Below the pieces are notes generated by a model. The model searched no databases. It was not told the DNA's origin and worked only from the letters and a program-made list of their open reading frames with translations. Shown in pieces: positions 13,398 through 22,953 of a DNA stretch of 29,394 bases (within the stretch, counting starts at the first letter, position 1; every line of letters starts with the position of its first letter). Made by a program: the position numbers and the translations under genes. This DNA comes from a virus (lineage: Duplodnaviria; Heunggongvirae; Uroviricota; Caudoviricetes), in IMG/VR virus record IMGVR_UViG_2690316131_000018; one strand, 5' to 3'.

Positions 13398-13720
13398 CCA
13401 AAGAGCTCATTCCGGTTACTAACCTGACTGGCTTGTCGTTAAATTGAACAGGTGGAGTGAGCTTTTATTTTGAGCAGTACGGCGTATGGCACATGCGACG
13501 ATAGCGGTCTGGATACGTTTAAGGGGGCACCCTCCCTTGCTCGGGCAAACGAACCAGGTAGCCGGAATGTGCAAGTCGAGCGGTTTTATTCCGCGCACGG
13601 GGATACACCATCCCGGCGATTCGGTGTGACGCCTCGGAAGAGACGAGGGTACAACGATGAGAGCATTTATGGAGCCGCGACAAAGTGTGGTGCCTTAACA
13701 GGCTAAGTGCTCTCAGCGTT

Positions 13721-13797
13721 GTGGCATTAGCTCAGTCGGACAGAGCAACCGCCTTCTAAGCGGTTGGTCGCAGGTTCGAATCCTGCATGCCACGCCA
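13721..13797 (+). tRNA. tRNA-Arg (anticodon UCU), phage-encoded
   Basis: 77-nt cloverleaf folded by hand: acceptor stem GTGGCAT/ATGCCAC, D-stem GCTC/GAGC, anticodon stem ACCGC/GCGGT with loop CTTCTAA, T-arm GCAGG-TTCGAAT-CCTGC, discriminator G and encoded CCA. D- and T-arms resemble host argU; acceptor and anticodon stems differ. Confidence 0.85.
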
Positions 13798-13840
13798 GAA
13801 TCACGCCTAAGGACCGTGATGCCAGAAGTTCCAGGTGCTT

Positions 13841-13884
13841 GGCGGTGATGGTTTCCCTTGAAGGGCTATCACCGCCCTTTTTAC
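13841..13884 (+). terminator. rho-independent terminator after the tRNA
   Basis: 9-bp stem GGCGGTGAT / ATCACCGCC with a structured loop, followed by CTTTTT. Confidence 0.6.
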
Positions 13885-13960
13885 AGCAGGACGCCATTGC
13901 GATGACTTCATGCTGTAAACCCGTACAGCCACGGAAGGCATAACTCATTGCTTCCAGTTC

Positions 13961-13985
13961 GCCCGGTTCGCCGGGCATTTTTTTG
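13961..13985 (+). terminator. second rho-independent terminator-like hairpin
   Basis: GCCCGG-TTCG-CCGGGC followed by ATTTTTTT. Confidence 0.5.
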
Positions 13986-14019
13986 CCTGATGACCGCAAA
14001 CTACCTTAAAGGTATAATC

Positions 14020-14838
14020 ATGAAAAAATTCAAGGTAATTAGCATGTTTGAATCGTTCAAAGAGCTGTTTTTATCTACTGCCAATACTGCCGTGAATCGA
14101 GCCAAAAACCCTGTGCTTGGTGCTTTTGTTATGTCCTGGTGCGCCTTCAACTGGAAATCAATTCTTTATCTATTTTTTAGCAAATCAAACATAATAGATA
14201 AAATTTCATATATCTCAGATAACAGCACATGGAAAACTGTTATGTTTTATCCATGCTTATCTGTAATTGCTATCTGCTGCCTATTACCATGGGTAAACAA
14301 TATCATTAACGTATGGCAAGCAAAGCCTCTTGATAATAATGACTCAATCGAAAATCACCTGAAGGCAAGAAAAATCCAGCGTGAAACAAGACTGCAGAGG
14401 TTATTGGCTAAAAAAGATGTTACATACGACAAAGTTAAGACTGGCGCGGAAAAAGACATCCAAGAGATGAAAGAAGAGATTATTCGATCAAAGAATAGTA
14501 TGGGGGAATTGACTGCCGAGTTGAAAGCTAAAGATGACGAATTGAGATCCGCCAGTGCTCAGTTAGCAGCTCTAAATCATTCATTAAAAGAGATATCGGA
14601 AACTCTTGGAAGAATGAATGAGGCATATAAGACCCTCCAAAATGATTTCGACGAATACAAACTCAAATACCCTGAAAAATCTCAAATAAAAAGCCTTGCA
14701 CTTGGCAACGGCCAAACAATTAGCAACTTTTTGGAGCAACACAACTTATCCGGATTAAAATCTGGTAAGCCAAACGTTTTTAATAACTTTGGTGTTCTAT
14801 CTGGATTATCAGGTTTCGAGGATAAAAATAAAGACTAA
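14020..14838 (+). CDS. AT-rich cargo gene: predicted membrane protein with long C-terminal coiled coil, unknown function
   Basis: The track ORF starts at 13948, but the probable start is the ATG at ~14020 (MKKFKVISMF), just after a TATAAT. Two hydrophobic segments near the N-terminus, then a charged heptad-like region. AT-rich versus the rest of the window. Convergent with the terminase gene, stops overlapping. Confidence 0.6.
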   Translation: MKKFKVISMFESFKELFLSTANTAVNRAKNPVLGAFVMSWCAFNWKSILYLFFSKSNIIDKISYISDNSTWKTVMFYPCLSVIAICCLLPWVNNIINVWQAKPLDNNDSIENHLKARKIQRETRLQRLLAKKDVTYDKVKTGAEKDIQEMKEEIIRSKNSMGELTAELKAKDDELRSASAQLAALNHSLKEISETLGRMNEAYKTLQNDFDEYKLKYPEKSQIKSLALGNGQTISNFLEQHNLSGLKSGKPNVFNNFGVLSGLSGFEDKNKD

Positions 14839-16310
14839 GCATATGGATCGTACTCGGTAAGCGCCTTGCCTTGCTGGTTCTGCTGCCCGGGAAGTCGCAG
14901 GCGCTTTGACACCGGGAAAGCAAACGTCAGCAGTAGCGCATCGCCTTTACCAGGAGAACGCCCAAGACGCTCTTTGATATCTTCCTTCGGTTCGATAACG
15001 ATTTTACCGTCCACACGAACTTTGTACTCTGCCGCCGACAGGTCGTCTGCAGTTTCCTGGTCATCCAGCATGCCGCCCAGCCTCAGCCATGTCTTACATG
15101 AGTTGAACATCTCCCCACGCTTGTTAAGCATCTGCGGGTCAGTGGACGCACCGCCGAACGGAACAAGTTGCCATGTACGCCCCCAGCCATCACCGATTGA
15201 CTTCAAACCGGTTCCGTAACCGAAGTCGATGAACACCGCGTCAGCCTGATACTGGTCTTCAAAGTCAGCGATACGCTTCGCCATAATCAGATCGTCAGTG
15301 GTCTTGTTGCCAGTCCACAGCACCTTACTGTGCAGCCCCTGCCGCAGGTATATCGCAGCGTCATCAACACCGGAGTATGCCGGGTCAACGCCGATTATCA
15401 CCGGAGCATGTACCACCTGCGCAGCGGTTACCACCCGTTTCATTGCCTCATCAGTAAGACCGGTAGGGATAAACTGCAATTCAGATGCATCAGGGAATAT
15501 GCCGCGCACACGGATTTTAACGAAGTCGCTGTCTTCCCCGTAGTCATCAACCCATTTCTGCAACTGCTATTTGTTAGTGCCTTCCACCGTCCGGCTGTCA
15601 ATCTGCGCAGTTTTCCAGCGGTGTTTGTATTTGCGGAAACATTCGCGAAAACGCCCGGTGTTACGTGTAGGGTTTCCGAACGCCACCCAGATAATCTCAG
15701 TGTCTTCGTCCGTAAGAGCACCCTCAGCAACTTCCCACACCAGATCCGCAATGTTCGACGCTTCATCAAATACCACGATGATGCGTTTGCGCTCGTTGTG
15801 TAGTCCGGCGAATGCCTCAGTGTTGTGCTCAGACCAGGGTATTGCGTCAGCCCGCCACCGCTTGTCGTGCCCAGGGTCATTGCTGTACATCGCGGTAGCG
15901 GTACAGGTAAACCAGTCTTTCGTGATGGCAAGGTTCGACCACTTGATAATTTCCGGCCAGGTCTTCGTTCGTAGCTGGTTGTCGGTGTTGGCGGTCACCA
16001 CGACCTTACAATCCTCGCAAGTGGACATGCCCCAGTTGATCAGCATTGAGATGAATGCGGATTTACCAATACCGTGACCAGAAGCGCGTGCCAGCATAAG
16101 CGGCTGATAGCGCGTCTCTGGATTCTGCAGGTGATCACGTATCTCTCGGAACGCATCGGCCTGCCACTGACGTGGACCGGTAGCATGTGCCAGTTCAGTC
16201 CCCTCTTCCCCCCAAGGGAACGCATAGAGGGCATAGCCAAGCGGATCGTGAGTGAACCCTGCAATATCTTCGATTAACTGCTCTTCAGGAGATAACGCTG
16301 CATCTGTCAC
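14835..16310 (-). pseudogene. terminase large subunit interrupted by an in-frame TAG
   Basis: ORF 15567..16310 has Walker A (GHGIGKS) and Walker B (IIVVFDEAS) motifs; ORF 14835..15563 has a nuclease-like Asp-rich region. Both are in one frame, separated only by TAG at 15567-15569 plus one sense codon. The second ORF starts at TTG, not ATG. Confidence 0.7.
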
Positions 16311-20659: not shown

Positions 20660-21460
20660 TTACTTGATAAATCCTGCCGCCTTTCCTCGCCTGTATTCCT
20701 CCATCAGCCACTGCGCCGGTGTTATTCCACCAAGGGTGGCGGCGTTAGGCATGCACCCGAAACTTCGCCCTGGTGGATGGTAAACGTCTCTCCCTGTGTC
20801 CGGAGGTGTACTCATGGGTTCTGGCTTTGCCTGTATGCTGATCACCGGATCGGGTATCTGCTGTCCGGAAGCCACCTTTTTCGCCCAATCATCGAGCAGC
20901 TTGCGCGCGTGTTTCTCAACCTCAATCTCGCTAAGCTGGCGCTGATACATTGCACGGCGGGTATCACATACGACCCAGTACATAACCGGATGTCGCCACG
21001 GGAATCTTTCGGGACCACCAGGATATAAACTTTTTTCCTTGCTGTACCGGTTAAACTCCGCCATCACATCGTCAATGGTGACGCCAAGAACCATCTTGCT
21101 GTCTTTACACCACTTGATGAATTGCCCAGGCGACGGCCAGAACGGAGATTCACTGGCGCGGGCGTGGCGCATACCAGCAGAAACCTGTTCACGGGTTCGG
21201 ATCCCCCCTTCGGCAAACGCAGCAATCCACTGCTGTTTTGCAGCAACTTCCTGCTCTGGCGTCTTCAGGTTGGTTACCACTGCCGCCGGAAACAGTTGTT
21301 TCAGCTGTTTGAAAAGGGCATCAACAAGCCTCTCTGCTGACATGTTCACCACGTTATCATTGTTGGTGTACTGATGCTCATAACCTGACATGCGAGAAAG
21401 GGCTTCTCCGTCACGGTTTTGTATCGCGGTAAAAACGTTGTTCACAAGAAATCCTCCCAT
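20660..21460 (-). CDS. lambda P-like replication protein (helicase loader)
   Basis: Central region closely resembles lambda P from memory (WIAAFAEGGIRTREQVSAGMRHARASESPFWPSPGQFIKWC; LYPGGPERFPWRHPVMYWVV). Probable start is GTG at ~21445, preceded by GGAGGA and overlapping the O-like stop. Confidence 0.75.
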   Translation of the reverse strand: MGGFLVNNVFTAIQNRDGEALSRMSGYEHQYTNNDNVVNMSAERLVDALFKQLKQLFPAAVVTNLKTPEQEVAAKQQWIAAFAEGGIRTREQVSAGMRHARASESPFWPSPGQFIKWCKDSKMVLGVTIDDVMAEFNRYSKEKSLYPGGPERFPWRHPVMYWVVCDTRRAMYQRQLSEIEVEKHARKLLDDWAKKVASGQQIPDPVISIQAKPEPMSTPPDTGRDVYHPPGRSFGCMPNAATLGGITPAQWLMEEYRRGKAAGFIK

Positions 21461-22257
21461 GCTTCAGGGCTGTTCCTGTGCGGAACGTTGTTATCAGGTA
21501 ATGTTGATTGCTTCTGTCTGCTAATCTGCAGCCTCCTTGCCAGCTTCTGCTCCCACTGTGCCTGATGGTATGCCTTACCCTCAGCCATCCAGTAAATTCT
21601 GAACTCTGCAAGTTCCTGTGCCGTTGGCAGACTGTCCAGGTAGATCCCCTGCAATGAGCTTTTCCGAAGAAAGTCATCTGATGGCTGCCATTGTTCATGC
21701 ATGACAAATTTGCCTAATTGCCCTGGCCCACCAGGAGGAACAAAGTTATTCATCACGGCGTTGTTTGCGCCGGGGTCATGAGGCACAGAATCCCCGCTTT
21801 TTGTCCTGCTCTCCCTCTCTTGGTTAAATGACTGGTTATATGACTGGTTCTGGATCCCGTTTTTGGGATCATTCAACATCCCGTTTTTGGGATCATTCAA
21901 CATCCCGTTTTTGGGTATATTCCCGTTTTCGGTAACATTACCGTTTTCGGGTTCATTGCCCCCCTCCAGGTTGCCTTTAATGTTCCCGTTTTTGGTTATA
22001 TTAAGAGAGAAAACCCGCACTCTTTTTGTCGCTCCCTTTCTCTCTCCGGTATCTGAAATAAGCCCCATTTTCATGAGCGATATAAGCCCGGCCTGCACGG
22101 TTTTTTTATTCAGGCAAGTGTCTTTAACGAGGCGTTCTATGCTGGGGTAGCAGAGGTTATATTCATCGGCTCTGTCAGCCATCGAGAGCAGTATGAGCTT
22201 TAATGATGAGCTACCTGGATCTGTCTCCCAGGCCCAATCTGTTGCATGTCTGCTCAT
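21442..22257 (-). CDS. lambda O-like replication initiator
   Basis: 271-aa ORF with an N-terminal HTH-like region, internal repeats (NGMLNDPKNG) encoded by iterons, and position directly upstream of the P-like gene. ATG at 22257 with GGAG ribosome-binding site. Confidence 0.7.
   Translation of the reverse strand: MSRHATDWAWETDPGSSSLKLILLSMADRADEYNLCYPSIERLVKDTCLNKKTVQAGLISLMKMGLISDTGERKGATKRVRVFSLNITKNGNIKGNLEGGNEPENGNVTENGNIPKNGMLNDPKNGMLNDPKNGIQNQSYNQSFNQERESRTKSGDSVPHDPGANNAVMNNFVPPGGPGQLGKFVMHEQWQPSDDFLRKSSLQGIYLDSLPTAQELAEFRIYWMAEGKAYHQAQWEQKLARRLQISRQKQSTLPDNNVPHRNSPEAWEDFL
21854..22002. repeat. origin-type iterons inside the O-like gene
   Basis: Two tandem 24-bp copies of ATCCCGTTTTTGGGATCATTCAAC followed by degenerate copies. 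Each has an internal inverted repeat (ATCCC...GGGAT) and resembles lambda ori iterons. Confidence 0.65.
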
Positions 22258-22272
22258 GATTAATCTCCGCTA

Positions 22273-22536
22273 TCAGCTTGAGTGTTGTGGGGAGGAATTA
22301 ATCATGATCTGCTTAATCTCTGCCCTGATGCGACGGTTTGATTCCATGGTGCACTCAACACAGTGTCCGTTGTAAACCCAGCGTTCACTGTCATGTCCGT
22401 GCTTACATGGTTTTCCGGTGTAGTAGCGTTTAAGTCCGCGCTTTGCGGCATCAATACGTGTAATGATTTCCATGGTAAGCCCTGTTATTAGTATTGGGAT
22501 TACGGTTATTTTGTGCTGACACAAAAAAAAGATCAA
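22273..22536 (-). CDS. small zinc-finger-like hypothetical protein (cII position)
   Basis: Probable start is the ATG at ~22473 (MEIITRIDAAK...CKHGHDSERWVYNGHCVEC). Located between the Cro-like and O-like genes. Confidence 0.4.
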   Translation of the reverse strand: MIFFLCQHKITVIPILITGLTMEIITRIDAAKRGLKRYYTGKPCKHGHDSERWVYNGHCVECTMESNRRIRAEIKQIMINSSPQHSS

Positions 22537-22854: not shown

Positions 22855-22890
22855 AGCTATTGCCTGATATTTATTTCAGATAATAAATAT

Positions 22891-22953
22891 TCACCCATAA
22901 GGTAACAAAAATCAAGGATAGTTACCTGTGGGGTGCATTTACCTGTTGGGTAA
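22891..22953. promoter_or_regulatory. tripartite operator region between the Cro-like and repressor genes
   Basis: Three TTACC-N5-GGTAA-type sites: TCACCCATAAGGTAA (22891-22905), TTACCTGTGGGGTGC (22922-22936) and the perfect TTACCTGTTGGGTAA (22939-22953). Confidence 0.6.

What the first reader, a model, noticed from the sequence alone, without database searches (positions are those of the whole stretch)
21854..22002. Lambda-like origin iterons embedded in the O-like gene
The tandem 24-bp repeats, each with an internal ATCCC...GGGAT inverted repeat, resemble lambda ori iterons and encode the repeated NGMLNDPKNG peptide. This marks the probable replication origin and supports the O/P assignment. 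It could be mistaken for a CRISPR-like or random repeat.
Basis: partly seen in the sequence, partly recalled or inferred. Interest (0 to 1): 0.45.

Follow-up and report, generated by a model that had tools for sequence, protein, structure and literature searches.

The report
Phage replication-origin repeats inside initiator gene
The repeats are real and are most likely the binding sites (iterons) of the replication origin of a phiV10-like E. coli prophage, sitting inside the gene for the protein that binds them, as in phage lambda: an ordinary kind of feature, but one not yet annotated or described for this phage group.

Summary
Six direct repeats with the core CCNAAAACGG (minus, gene-sense strand) lie at 21854-21998. 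They are the only six hits in the 29.4-kb window, where 0.3 are expected by chance. They sit in the linker of a 271-aa initiator gene (21442-22257, minus strand; HTH_36 N-domain plus DnaT-like C-domain). A lambda-P-family gene follows.

In 80 distant homologues from many Proteobacteria the same DNA core occurs 129 times in the initiator genes and 6 times in about 5-fold more flanking DNA. All but one copy are in the sense orientation, always just after the N-domain, and in all three reading frames. Synonymous codon positions are fixed. So the DNA is constrained, not the peptide.

The array travels with the N-domain whatever the C-domain or helicase partner, and its spacer variant tracks N-domain subclades. 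A second conserved element follows the last iteron: 12/13-nt tandem repeats, then an A- or purine-rich tract (window 21791-21849). This extends the probable origin beyond the reported coordinates.

The initiator is not in the lambda O Pfam family, and the iterons are 3 bp shorter than lambda's. It works like ori-lambda but is a different family. I rate it a new member of a known kind, of modest interest.

The parts
21442..22257 (-). Replication initiator gene ('O-like'), 271 aa. It has an N-terminal HTH_36 winged-helix-type domain, a repeat-encoded linker and a C-terminal DnaT-like ssDNA-binding domain.
   Evidence: The ORF is listed. Pfam gives HTH_36 at aa 18-67 (E 1.8e-10) and DnaT at aa 184-252 (E 1.2e-15). 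PHROG phrog_1032 'replication initiation protein' matches at 1e-106. PDB DnaT C-domain chains match at E about 1e-20.
22000..22257 (-). Coding region of the N-terminal DNA-binding domain (aa 1-86), the presumed iteron reader.
   Evidence: Pfam HTH_36. The domain aligns at 46-58% identity with initiators of Edwardsiella, Vibrio, Acinetobacter and E. coli PPompW phages.
21983..21998 (-). Iteron 1 (most distal from the 12-mers): AACCAAAAACGGGAAC.
21938..21953 (-). Iteron 2: AACCCGAAAACGGTAA.
21920..21935 (-). Iteron 3: TTACCGAAAACGGGAA.
21902..21917 (-). Iteron 4: TACCCAAAAACGGGAT.
21878..21893 (-). Iteron 5: ATCCCAAAAACGGGAT, a perfect 5+6+5 dyad that contains a GATC site.
21854..21869 (-). Iteron 6: ATCCCAAAAACGGGAT, a perfect dyad adjacent to the 12-mers.
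21816..21849 (-). Tandem 12-mers AACCAGTCATAT / AACCAGTCATTT / AACCAAGAGAGG. This is the second conserved origin element and the candidate start of the unwinding region.
   Evidence: TRF finds a 12-bp unit x2.4 at 21821-21849, with exact copies at 21828-21837 and 21840-21849. Family-wide, the sequence after the last iteron shows 12/13-nt periodicity. The stretch is in the 97th percentile of the window for duplex instability.
21791..21821 (-). Purine-rich tract (28 of 31 purines on the gene-sense strand): AAGAGAGGGAGAGCAGGACAAAAAGCGGGGA. It occupies the position of the A-rich tract seen in relatives and in lambda.
   Evidence: Sequence. Composition 0.87 pyrimidine on the + strand. In the family profile, AT is 0.73-0.85 and purine 0.78 at +30 to +50 nt after the last iteron.
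21502..21708 (-). Coding region of the DnaT-like C-terminal domain (aa 184-252).
20660..21460 (-). Lambda-P-family helicase-loader gene. It overlaps the end of the initiator gene.
   Evidence: Pfam PF06992 at E 1.5e-56. It is 31% identical to lambda P, E 3e-35.
22880..22908 (-). pR-like promoter candidate upstream of the cro-like gene. Transcription from it would run through the origin.
   Evidence: This is a consensus scan only: TTGTTA-17-TATTAT, and the number of promoter-like sites in the region is no higher than in shuffles. The cro-like ORF 22624-22854 matches phrog_35, transcriptional repressor.

Best explanation
The array is the iteron part of the replication origin of a phiV10-like (Uetakevirus) temperate phage or prophage of E. 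coli. It is embedded in the linker-coding part of the phage's own initiator gene.

Shown by computation:
- Six same-orientation repeats share the core CCNAAAACGG. The best copies form a 16-bp dyad, ATCCC-AAAAAC-GGGAT.
- The core is constrained as DNA, not as peptide.
- The array is inherited as one module with the N-terminal HTH_36-type DNA-binding domain encoded just upstream.
- The array is followed by 12/13-nt tandem repeats and an A- or purine-rich tract.
- The initiator ends in a DnaT-like ssDNA-binding domain.
- The next gene is a lambda-P-type helicase loader.

Inferred mechanism, by analogy with ori-lambda and iteron plasmids:
- Dimers of the initiator bind the dyad iterons through the N-domain.
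- Several bound, A-tract-bent iterons form an 'O-some'-like complex.
- The stress opens the adjacent 12-mer and purine-rich region (about 21791-21849).
- The DnaT-like C-domain holds the exposed single strand and/or docks the P-DnaB complex, and P delivers the host DnaB helicase.
- Transcription from the early rightward-type promoter through the gene probably assists opening.

The encoded N/G/P/K-rich peptide is a tolerant linker. That is why the copy number drifts (4-9 cores) by slippage in units of 24 and 18 bp without breaking the frame.
For: 1. The repeats are statistically real and unique in the window.
2. They lie between the HTH_36 domain and the DnaT-like domain of the initiator, and a P-family gene follows.
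3. In 80 homologous loci, from one genome per species across gamma-, beta-, alpha- and delta-proteobacteria, CCNAAAACGG occurs 129 times in 68.5 kb of initiator ORFs (128 in sense orientation). It occurs 6 times in 330 kb of flanks. In the ORFs it always lies at about nt 260-650, just after the N-domain.
4. Of 144 sites across 85 genes (those loci plus the window and four phage genes), 103 are in frame 1 (PKNG), 29 in frame 2 (TQKRD) and 12 in frame 0 (PKTE). The flanking 'AA' at positions -7/-6 is conserved in all three frames.
5. An unbiased codon test selected sites by peptide. In 65 unique P[KE]NG sites the Pro codon is CCC in 65/65 (14% elsewhere in the genes). The K/E codon is A-ending in 65/65 (63% elsewhere). 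The Asn codon is AAC in 62/65 (51% elsewhere). Fisher p is about 3e-13 to 5e-13 for the last two.
6. The module behaves as a unit. The same N-domain plus iterons is joined to a DnaT-like C-domain with P (this window), to a lambda-O C-terminal half with P (Edwardsiella GF-2; 62% identical to lambda O aa 156-299), or is followed by a DnaB-like helicase gene (Acinetobacter AP22). Salmonella SPN1S is in the same genus and has the same DnaT-like C-domain but a different N-domain. It has no such motif and no repeat family of three or more copies.
7. CC-N6-GG elements number 3-11 in the 380-nt linker of most genes (none in L117), against 0-3 in the rest of the gene for most loci. The spacer variant (AAAAAC / AACAAY / AAAAGT / AAAATT) follows N-domain subclades, including two different classes within the single host genus Acinetobacter.
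8. The second element is conserved. The best self-match offset is 12 or 13 in 43 of 52 loci. The 12/13-mers are read in two frames in 45 of 56 loci. An AT- and purine-rich peak follows.
9. The layout and polarity match ori-lambda: iterons, then an A-rich tract downstream in the sense direction. Lambda's own iterons also occupy frames 0, 2, 2 and 1 (coordinates). The general architecture is as described in PMC7466680.
10. Copy number varies among near-identical prophages: 4-9 exact cores, mode 6, and proteins of 271-311 aa.
Against: There is no experimental evidence of binding or origin firing for this phage group. No paper in the searched library mentions iterons for phiV10, and no origin feature is annotated in the phiV10 region examined.

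In this window the region after the iterons is not strongly AT-rich. The 12-mers are 61% AT and the purine tract 45% AT. The least stable stretch of the gene lies on the other flank of the array, at 21975-22014, so the unwinding site is uncertain.

Only two of the six copies carry the perfect dyad. Within the E. coli population, core positions are only marginally less polymorphic than non-core positions (2/54 against 12/97, p = 0.088). The N-domain could not be modelled: the single-sequence AlphaFold2 model has mean pLDDT 38. Dimer binding is therefore inferred.
Confidence: 0.8

Rival explanations
1. The repeats are initiator-binding sites, but they serve mainly for autoregulation, copy control or exclusion (titration or handcuffing). 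They are not the place where replication starts, and the true origin lies elsewhere.
For: The DNA-level constraint and the linkage to the N-domain show binding sites, not firing. The window lacks a strong AT-rich tract next to the array.
Against: A conserved 12/13-mer plus A-rich element always abuts the last iteron, as an unwinding element would. No other copy of the iteron exists in the 29-kb window. The layout is the same as in ori-lambda, where the array is the origin (PMC7466680).
Confidence: 0.08
2. It is simply a low-complexity peptide repeat (an N/G/P/K linker) produced by recent slippage. The DNA similarity is a by-product and the DNA has no function.
For: Within this window all six copies are in one reading frame, with spacings that are multiples of 3. 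Copy number varies among close relatives. The linker matches no Pfam domain.
Against: In distant relatives the same DNA core is read in all three frames and gives different peptides. Synonymous positions are fixed. The orientation is the same in 128 of 129 cases.
Confidence: 0.03
3. The repeats are binding sites for some other protein: a host factor (DnaA, IHF, Fis, SeqA through the GATC sites) or another phage protein such as a small terminase (pac site).
For: Three GATC sites lie in the last 2.5 repeats. The A-tracts suggest bent DNA that architectural proteins prefer.
Against: The core is conserved across hosts from four proteobacterial classes. Two different core variants occur within the one host genus Acinetobacter, and each follows the phage N-domain type. 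The array is found in phages of unrelated genera with different gene neighbourhoods, which argues against a packaging site. The core resembles neither the DnaA box nor the IHF consensus (my reading of the sequence against textbook consensus sequences).
Confidence: 0.05
4. It is a CRISPR-like array or a structured RNA element.
For: It has regularly spaced short dyad repeats. The RNA fold z-score is -2.7.
Against: The repeats abut each other with 2-8 bp between the 16-bp dyads (29 bp before iteron 1) and there are no unique spacers. They lie inside a conserved ORF. Rfam finds nothing here. The ssDNA fold z-score is -0.74, and the RNA signal comes only from the iteron dyads.
Confidence: 0.01

Closest known systems
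ori-lambda with the lambda O / P replication module (Lambdavirus lambda). The Stx-phage variants 933W and P27 have six iterons.
   Same: The origin lies inside the initiator gene, directly after the N-terminal DNA-binding domain. It has multiple same-orientation, dyad-symmetric, A-tract-containing iterons (lambda 4, Stx phages 6, here 6). An A- or purine-rich tract lies downstream in the sense direction. A P-family helicase loader is encoded next. Iteron number varies between relatives and changes the protein length (PMC7466680).
   Different: The initiator N-domain is Pfam HTH_36, not Phage_rep_O (hhalign probability 5.9%). The C-domain is DnaT-like, not the lambda O C-domain. The iteron dyad is 16 bp (TCCC-N6-GGGA) against 18 bp (TCCCTC-N5-GAGGGA) in lambda, so the outer span is 3 bp shorter. 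A 12/13-nt tandem-repeat element lies between the iterons and the A-rich tract. In this window the tract is purine-rich rather than AT-rich.
DopC/DopE, a pair of lambdoid O/P genes domesticated in Cellvibrionales and some Oceanospirillales (Brezellec et al. 2017, PMC5509034).
   Same: It has the same reported architecture: an HTH_36 N-domain plus a DnaT C-terminal motif, encoded immediately upstream of a P-family gene (compared).
   Different: The authors report no iteron-like sequences in dopC and conclude that it is no longer an origin. The window gene is phage-borne and carries a full iteron array. I did not compare the sequences directly.
Iteron plasmids with winged-helix Rep initiators (pPS10 RepA, R6K pi, RK2 TrfA) and their 13-mer unwinding elements. 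This comparison rests on textbook knowledge and was not tested here.
   Same: Direct repeats are bound by a winged-helix initiator and lie next to short tandem 12/13-mers and an A-rich region that melts.
   Different: Plasmid iterons are intergenic and about 17-22 bp long without a strong dyad. Here they are inside the coding sequence, and the helicase is presumably recruited through P.
E. coli primosomal protein DnaT (C-terminal ssDNA-binding domain; PDB 4OU6, 6AEP, 9ZBT).
   Same: Residues 180-265 of the window protein match the DnaT C-domain at E about 1e-20.
   Different: DnaT has no sequence-specific N-terminal HTH domain and acts in PriA-dependent restart, not at an origin.

Membership tests
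Lambda-type origin (ori-lambda / Phage_rep_O module) | The origin repeats lie inside the initiator gene, between the DNA-binding domain and the C-terminal domain. | tested here: met
   The repeats encode aa about 87-135 of 271, between HTH_36 (aa 18-67) and the DnaT domain (aa 184-252).
Lambda-type origin (ori-lambda / Phage_rep_O module) | Four or more same-orientation iterons with internal dyad symmetry and an A-tract. | tested here: met
   There are six copies. Two are perfect 16-bp dyads, one is near-perfect and three are degenerate. All have A4-A5 tracts.
Lambda-type origin (ori-lambda / Phage_rep_O module) | An AT-rich unwinding region directly downstream of the last iteron. | tested here: inconclusive
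   In the window the 12-mers are 61% AT and the purine tract 45% AT, against a gene mean of 52%. The most unstable stretch is on the other flank. The family average shows a clear AT peak of 0.73-0.85.
Lambda-type origin (ori-lambda / Phage_rep_O module) | The initiator belongs to the lambda O family (Pfam PF04492). | tested here: not met
   The window protein hits HTH_36, not PF04492. Lambda O hits PF04492 and not HTH_36, even at E up to 1. hhalign probability is 5.9%.
Lambda-type origin (ori-lambda / Phage_rep_O module) | The iteron sequence matches the lambda consensus ATCCCTCAAAACGAGGGA. | tested here: not met
   The alignment shares only TCCC / AAAAC / GGGA, and the half-site span is 3 bp shorter.
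Lambda-type origin (ori-lambda / Phage_rep_O module) | A P-family helicase loader is encoded immediately downstream. | tested here: met
   PF06992 at E 1.5e-56; 31% identity to lambda P.
Lambda-type origin (ori-lambda / Phage_rep_O module) | Initiator-dependent origin activity of the fragment. | not testable with these tools
   This needs a plasmid replication assay or origin mapping.
HTH_36-type phage initiators with intragenic CC-N6-GG iterons (a grouping defined here from the comparison) | An N-domain homologous to the group, three or more CC-N6-GG repeats in the linker in sense orientation, then 12/13-nt tandem repeats. | tested here: met
   N-domain identity to members is 46-58%. The window has six cores and 12-mers x2.4. 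The same anatomy is seen in most of the 80 genome loci.
DopC/DopE (domesticated O/P) | HTH_36 + DnaT_C protein next to a P-like gene; chromosomal, not in a prophage; no iterons. | tested here: not met
   The architecture is met. However, the gene is in a phiV10-like phage context and carries iterons, whereas the paper reports none in dopC.
CRISPR array | Repeats separated by unique spacers of similar length, non-coding, usually with cas genes nearby. | tested here: not met
   The units abut each other with no unique spacers and lie inside a conserved ORF.

The most novel reading that the evidence does not exclude
The window exemplifies a widespread, so far undescribed class of phage origins in Proteobacteria. 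These have HTH_36-type initiators with intragenic TCCC-N6-GGGA iterons. A second, frame-independent 12/13-nt tandem repeat (rGAAYCnnYCA) would be a sequence-specific unwinding or single-strand recognition element, comparable to oriC 13-mers, DnaA-trios or the RK2 13-mers. The phiV10-type version (HTH_36 + DnaT_C with P) would be the still origin-bearing phage counterpart of the ancestor of the bacterial DopC/DopE helicase-loading pair, which lost these repeats on domestication.
Probability: 0.35. Interest if true: 0.55.

Novelty: new member of a known kind. Interest (0 to 1): 0.35.

Why it matters
The result gives a testable origin for phiV10-like prophages. The initiator gene is present in 424 of 5426 complete E. 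coli genomes, and these phages are used as O157 reporter and typing phages. It also gives a simple DNA signature for finding origins in many unannotated phages of Vibrio, Acinetobacter, Edwardsiella and other hosts: CC-N6-GG repeats followed by 12/13-mers, just after an HTH_36 domain.

It explains two practical nuisances. These initiator proteins vary in length, and assemblies often break in the repeat region. It also shows that databases name this initiator 'primosomal protein / DnaT', which hides its role.

Conceptually it is one more case of the lambda solution, with the origin inside the initiator gene and modular exchange at the origin. It is not a new principle.

Tried and rejected
- **Homology to lambda O.** A profile of the N-domain compared with lambda O gave 5.9% probability. 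Pfam places the two in different families. Homology is therefore not shown here, although PMC5509034 reports it by HHpred.
- **Structure.** Three protein-database searches returned only fragments or near-identical E. coli proteins, so no diverse alignment was available. The single-sequence AlphaFold2 model has mean pLDDT 38 and is unusable. I ran no fold search.
- **Population test.** Core positions against non-core positions among 45 in-register alleles give 2/54 against 12/97, p = 0.088, which is only a trend. A first attempt was spoiled by one out-of-register allele.
- **Strand folding.** The ssDNA fold gives z = -0.74 and the RNA fold z = -2.74. These reflect only the iteron dyads, so there is no case for a structured RNA or a special cruciform.
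- **Duplex stability.** The scan did not single out one clear unwinding element in this window.
- **Extra binding sites.** Searches for further iterons or 12-mers elsewhere in the window found none beyond chance.
- **Literature.** Searches for phiV10 or epsilon15 origins, and for the iteron sequence as text, found nothing relevant.
- **Rejected readings.** A CRISPR-like array and a peptide-only repeat are both rejected (see the rival explanations).
- **Scan artefacts.** The 'terminator-like' hits at 21864-21907 on the + strand are artefacts of inverted repeats between neighbouring iterons.
Full report
**1. What is in the sequence**

The window region 21442-22257 carries a 271-aa ORF on the minus strand. 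Tandem Repeats Finder reports a 24-bp unit repeated 2.6 times at 100% identity at 21854-21915. It also reports an overlapping 18-bp unit at 21903-21957 and a separate 12-bp unit repeated 2.4 times at 21821-21849.

The repeat finder puts six copies in register at 21854, 21878, 21902, 21920, 21938 and 21983. Read on the gene-sense (minus) strand, all six share CCNAAAACGG. This pattern has six matches in the 29,394-base window, all of them here and all on the minus strand. Shuffles give a mean of 0.30, and no shuffle reaches six.

The full dyad ATCCCAAAAACGGGAT is perfect in two copies and near-perfect in a third. The other three copies are degenerate. The array is in frame and encodes ...ENGNIPKNGMLNDPKNGMLNDPKNGIQNQS....

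**2. Context**

The ORF has a Pfam HTH_36 domain (aa 18-67, E 1.8e-10) and a DnaT DNA-binding domain (aa 184-252, E 1.2e-15). The next gene on the same strand, 20660-21460, is lambda P family (PF06992, E 1.5e-56). It is 31% identical to lambda P. The C-domain matches solved E. coli DnaT C-domains at E about 1e-20. PHROGs calls the protein a replication initiation protein (phrog_1032, 1e-106).

Upstream on the same strand lie a small ORF of unknown function, a terminator-like site, a cro-like repressor gene and a pR-like promoter candidate. A divergent two-HTH repressor gene faces them. This is a lambdoid early-right operon.

The gene is 97-99.5% identical to those of Escherichia phages EC.W1-9, phiv142-3, PAS61 and phiV10 (genus Uetakevirus). 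It occurs in 424 of 5426 complete E. coli genomes. In the phiV10 region examined, only CDS and terminator features are annotated and no origin.

**3. Is the DNA or the peptide under constraint?**

Within this window all six copies are in one frame, so the window alone cannot decide this. Relatives can.

I collected 80 loci from one genome per species that encode a relative of the N-domain (42-87% identity). The hosts include Vibrio, Pseudoalteromonas, Marinomonas, Acinetobacter, Providencia, Edwardsiella, Yersinia, Kluyvera, Enterobacter, and beta-, alpha- and delta-proteobacteria. I added four phages: GF-2, Her, AP22 and PPompW.

- CCNAAAACGG occurs 129 times in 68.5 kb of these 80 initiator ORFs, 128 of them in the sense orientation. 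It occurs 6 times in 330 kb of flanking DNA counted on both strands. In the ORFs it always lies just after the N-domain.
- With the window and the four phage genes added (85 genes, 144 sites), the sites fall in all three reading frames: 103, 29 and 12. They give PKNG, TQKRD or PKTE peptides from the same DNA. The flanking AA at positions -7/-6 is conserved in every frame.
- A test that selects sites by peptide rather than by DNA shows fixed synonymous positions. In 65 unique P[KE]NG sites the Pro codon is CCC in 65/65 (14% elsewhere). The Lys/Glu codon is A-ending in 65/65 (63% elsewhere). The Asn codon is AAC in 62/65 (51% elsewhere). Fisher p is about 3e-13 to 5e-13 for the last two.

This excludes a mere peptide repeat. 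Lambda behaves the same way: from the annotated coordinates its four iterons start at offsets 348, 368, 392 and 415 in O, that is in frames 0, 2, 2 and 1.

**4. Which protein reads the repeats?**

The array is inherited with the N-domain and not with the rest of the module.

- Edwardsiella phage GF-2 has this N-domain and a 24-bp iteron array. From aa 137 onward its protein is 62% identical to lambda O aa 156-299, and it is followed by a P gene.
- Acinetobacter AP22 has the N-domain and iterons, followed by a DnaB-like helicase gene.
- Salmonella phage SPN1S is in the same genus as phiV10 and has the same DnaT-like C-domain, but a different N-terminus. It has no motif and no repeat family of three or more copies.

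Generalised CC-N6-GG elements number 3-11 in the 380-nt linker of most genes (none in L117). Most loci have 0-3 in the rest of the gene; a few high-GC loci have more. The spacer variant follows N-domain subclades:

- AAAAAC or GAAAAC in the enteric, Vibrio and several Acinetobacter lineages;
- AACAAC, AACAAT or AACGTT in the large Acinetobacter 'RKTVLKII' lineage;
- AAAAGT in three loci;
- AAAATT in GF-2 and L091.

Two iteron classes occur within one host genus, and each tracks the phage protein. That step is an inference; no binding was measured.

**5. A second element extends the origin**

Immediately after the last iteron, nearly all family members carry 2-4 tandem copies of a 12/13-nt unit, rGAAYCnnYCAnn. 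An A-rich, purine-biased tract follows.

- Spacing is 12 nt (52 cases) or 13 nt (44 cases).
- In 45 of 56 unique loci the unit is therefore read in two different frames (NQS against EPV, NL against ES).
- Autocorrelation of the 44 nt after the last iteron peaks at offsets 12-13: 0.43-0.47 against 0.23-0.29 in control segments. The best offset is 12 or 13 in 43 of 52 loci.
- Mean AT reaches 0.73-0.85 and purine 0.78 at +30 to +50 nt, against a gene mean AT of 0.57.

In the window this element is AACCAGTCATAT / AACCAGTCATTT / AACCAAG... (21816-21849). It is followed by a 31-nt tract with 28 purines on the sense strand (21791-21821). The probable origin is therefore about 21791-21998, wider than the reported interval.

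One caveat applies to this window. The tract is purine-rich but only 45% AT, and the least stable duplex stretch of the gene lies at the other end of the array, at 21975-22014. The exact site of opening is uncertain.

**6. Copy number**

Among 77 full-length, near-identical prophage and phage copies the number of exact cores is 4-9, with a mode of 6. The 24-bp unit occurs 1-6 times and the 18-bp unit 1-4 times. Database proteins range from 271 to 311 aa. phiV10 has an extra 12-mer, and the copy in the BP9 record lacks one 24-bp unit.

All changes keep the frame, as expected for a tolerant linker. The same is reported for Stx phages, where two extra iterons add 13 residues to O (PMC7466680).

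**7. Comparison with what is known**

Functionally and architecturally this is the lambda solution. Iterons with dyad symmetry and A-tracts sit inside the initiator gene. The A- or purine-rich side lies downstream, and a P-type loader comes next.

It does not meet the definition of the lambda O/ori family, however. The N-domain is HTH_36, not PF04492, and the profile comparison is insignificant. The C-domain is DnaT-like. The iteron is a 16-bp TCCC-N6-GGGA dyad, against lambda's 18-bp TCCCTC-N5-GAGGGA.

The domain architecture (HTH_36 + DnaT C-motif, next to a P-like gene) is the one described for the bacterial DopC/DopE pair. That pair is interpreted as domesticated lambdoid O/P genes, and its authors found no iterons in dopC (PMC5509034). 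The window gene looks like the phage-borne, origin-carrying form of that architecture. I did not compare the sequences directly.

I found no paper describing iterons or an origin for phiV10-like phages, or for this motif. The library covers open-access papers only.

**8. Verdict**

Three qualifications apply. The initiator is an analogue rather than a member of the lambda O family. The origin extends about 60 bp further downstream in the gene direction. Firing and binding remain untested.

This is an ordinary kind of feature. The family-wide bipartite signature and the DopC link add modest interest.

Noticed in passing
window 13721-13797 (+): There is a tRNA-Arg (anticodon TCT) gene between the structural and early regions. 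Rfam scores it 73 bits and ARAGORN agrees. The same tRNA is annotated in O157 typing phages 9 and 10 and in phiv142-3.
   Followed up: partly
window 13400-14900, ORF 13948-14838 (+): Only about 44% of this stretch matches phiV10-like phages. The 296-aa ORF appears to be a mosaic insertion relative to phiV10.
   Followed up: no
L003 (Edwardsiella phage GF-2) 1501-2343: This is a hybrid initiator. Its N-domain, iterons and 12-mers are of the family described here, and it is fused to the lambda-O C-terminal half (62% identity from aa 137). The junction falls right at the origin, as in classical lambdoid hybrids.
   Followed up: partly
window 21853, 21867, 21891: Three GATC (Dam) sites fall within the last 2.5 iterons, because the 24-bp unit contains GATC. 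This could link origin use to methylation or SeqA. I did not test it.
   Followed up: no
PP488543.1 (Escherichia phage BP9, L002) 133-137 kb; PP350014.1 (phage PH444): Two large records (138 kb, classified as Vequintavirus; 115 kb, unannotated) contain a phiV10-like repressor/initiator/P segment near one end. This looks like an assembly chimera or a contaminating prophage sequence.
   Followed up: no
proteins P0001-P0036; loci L009, L012: Many database entries for this initiator are fragments of 47-143 aa; several of the longer ones (about 97-143 aa) are about the length of the N-domain plus part of the repeat region. Some prophage copies have shortened ORFs (182 and 231 aa). Likely causes are assembly breaks or frameshifts in the repeats.
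   Followed up: no
L007 (Salmonella phage SPN1S) 1048-2328: This phage is in the same genus as phiV10, yet its initiator has a different N-terminus with no Pfam match. It has no iteron array and no P gene; a DUF1064 gene follows directly. Its origin and helicase-loading route are therefore unclear.
   Followed up: partly
window 22273-22536 (-): This is an 87-aa ORF between the cro-like gene and the initiator gene, with a Cys/His-rich motif (CKHGH...CVEC). It matches phrog_1081 (unknown function) and has a weak similarity to endonuclease VII-like families.
   Followed up: no
window 21864-21907 (+): Two 'terminator-like' hits on the + strand are produced by inverted repeats between neighbouring iterons (GGGAT-N8-ATCCC followed by T5). 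They are scan artefacts on the antisense strand of the gene.
   Followed up: yes
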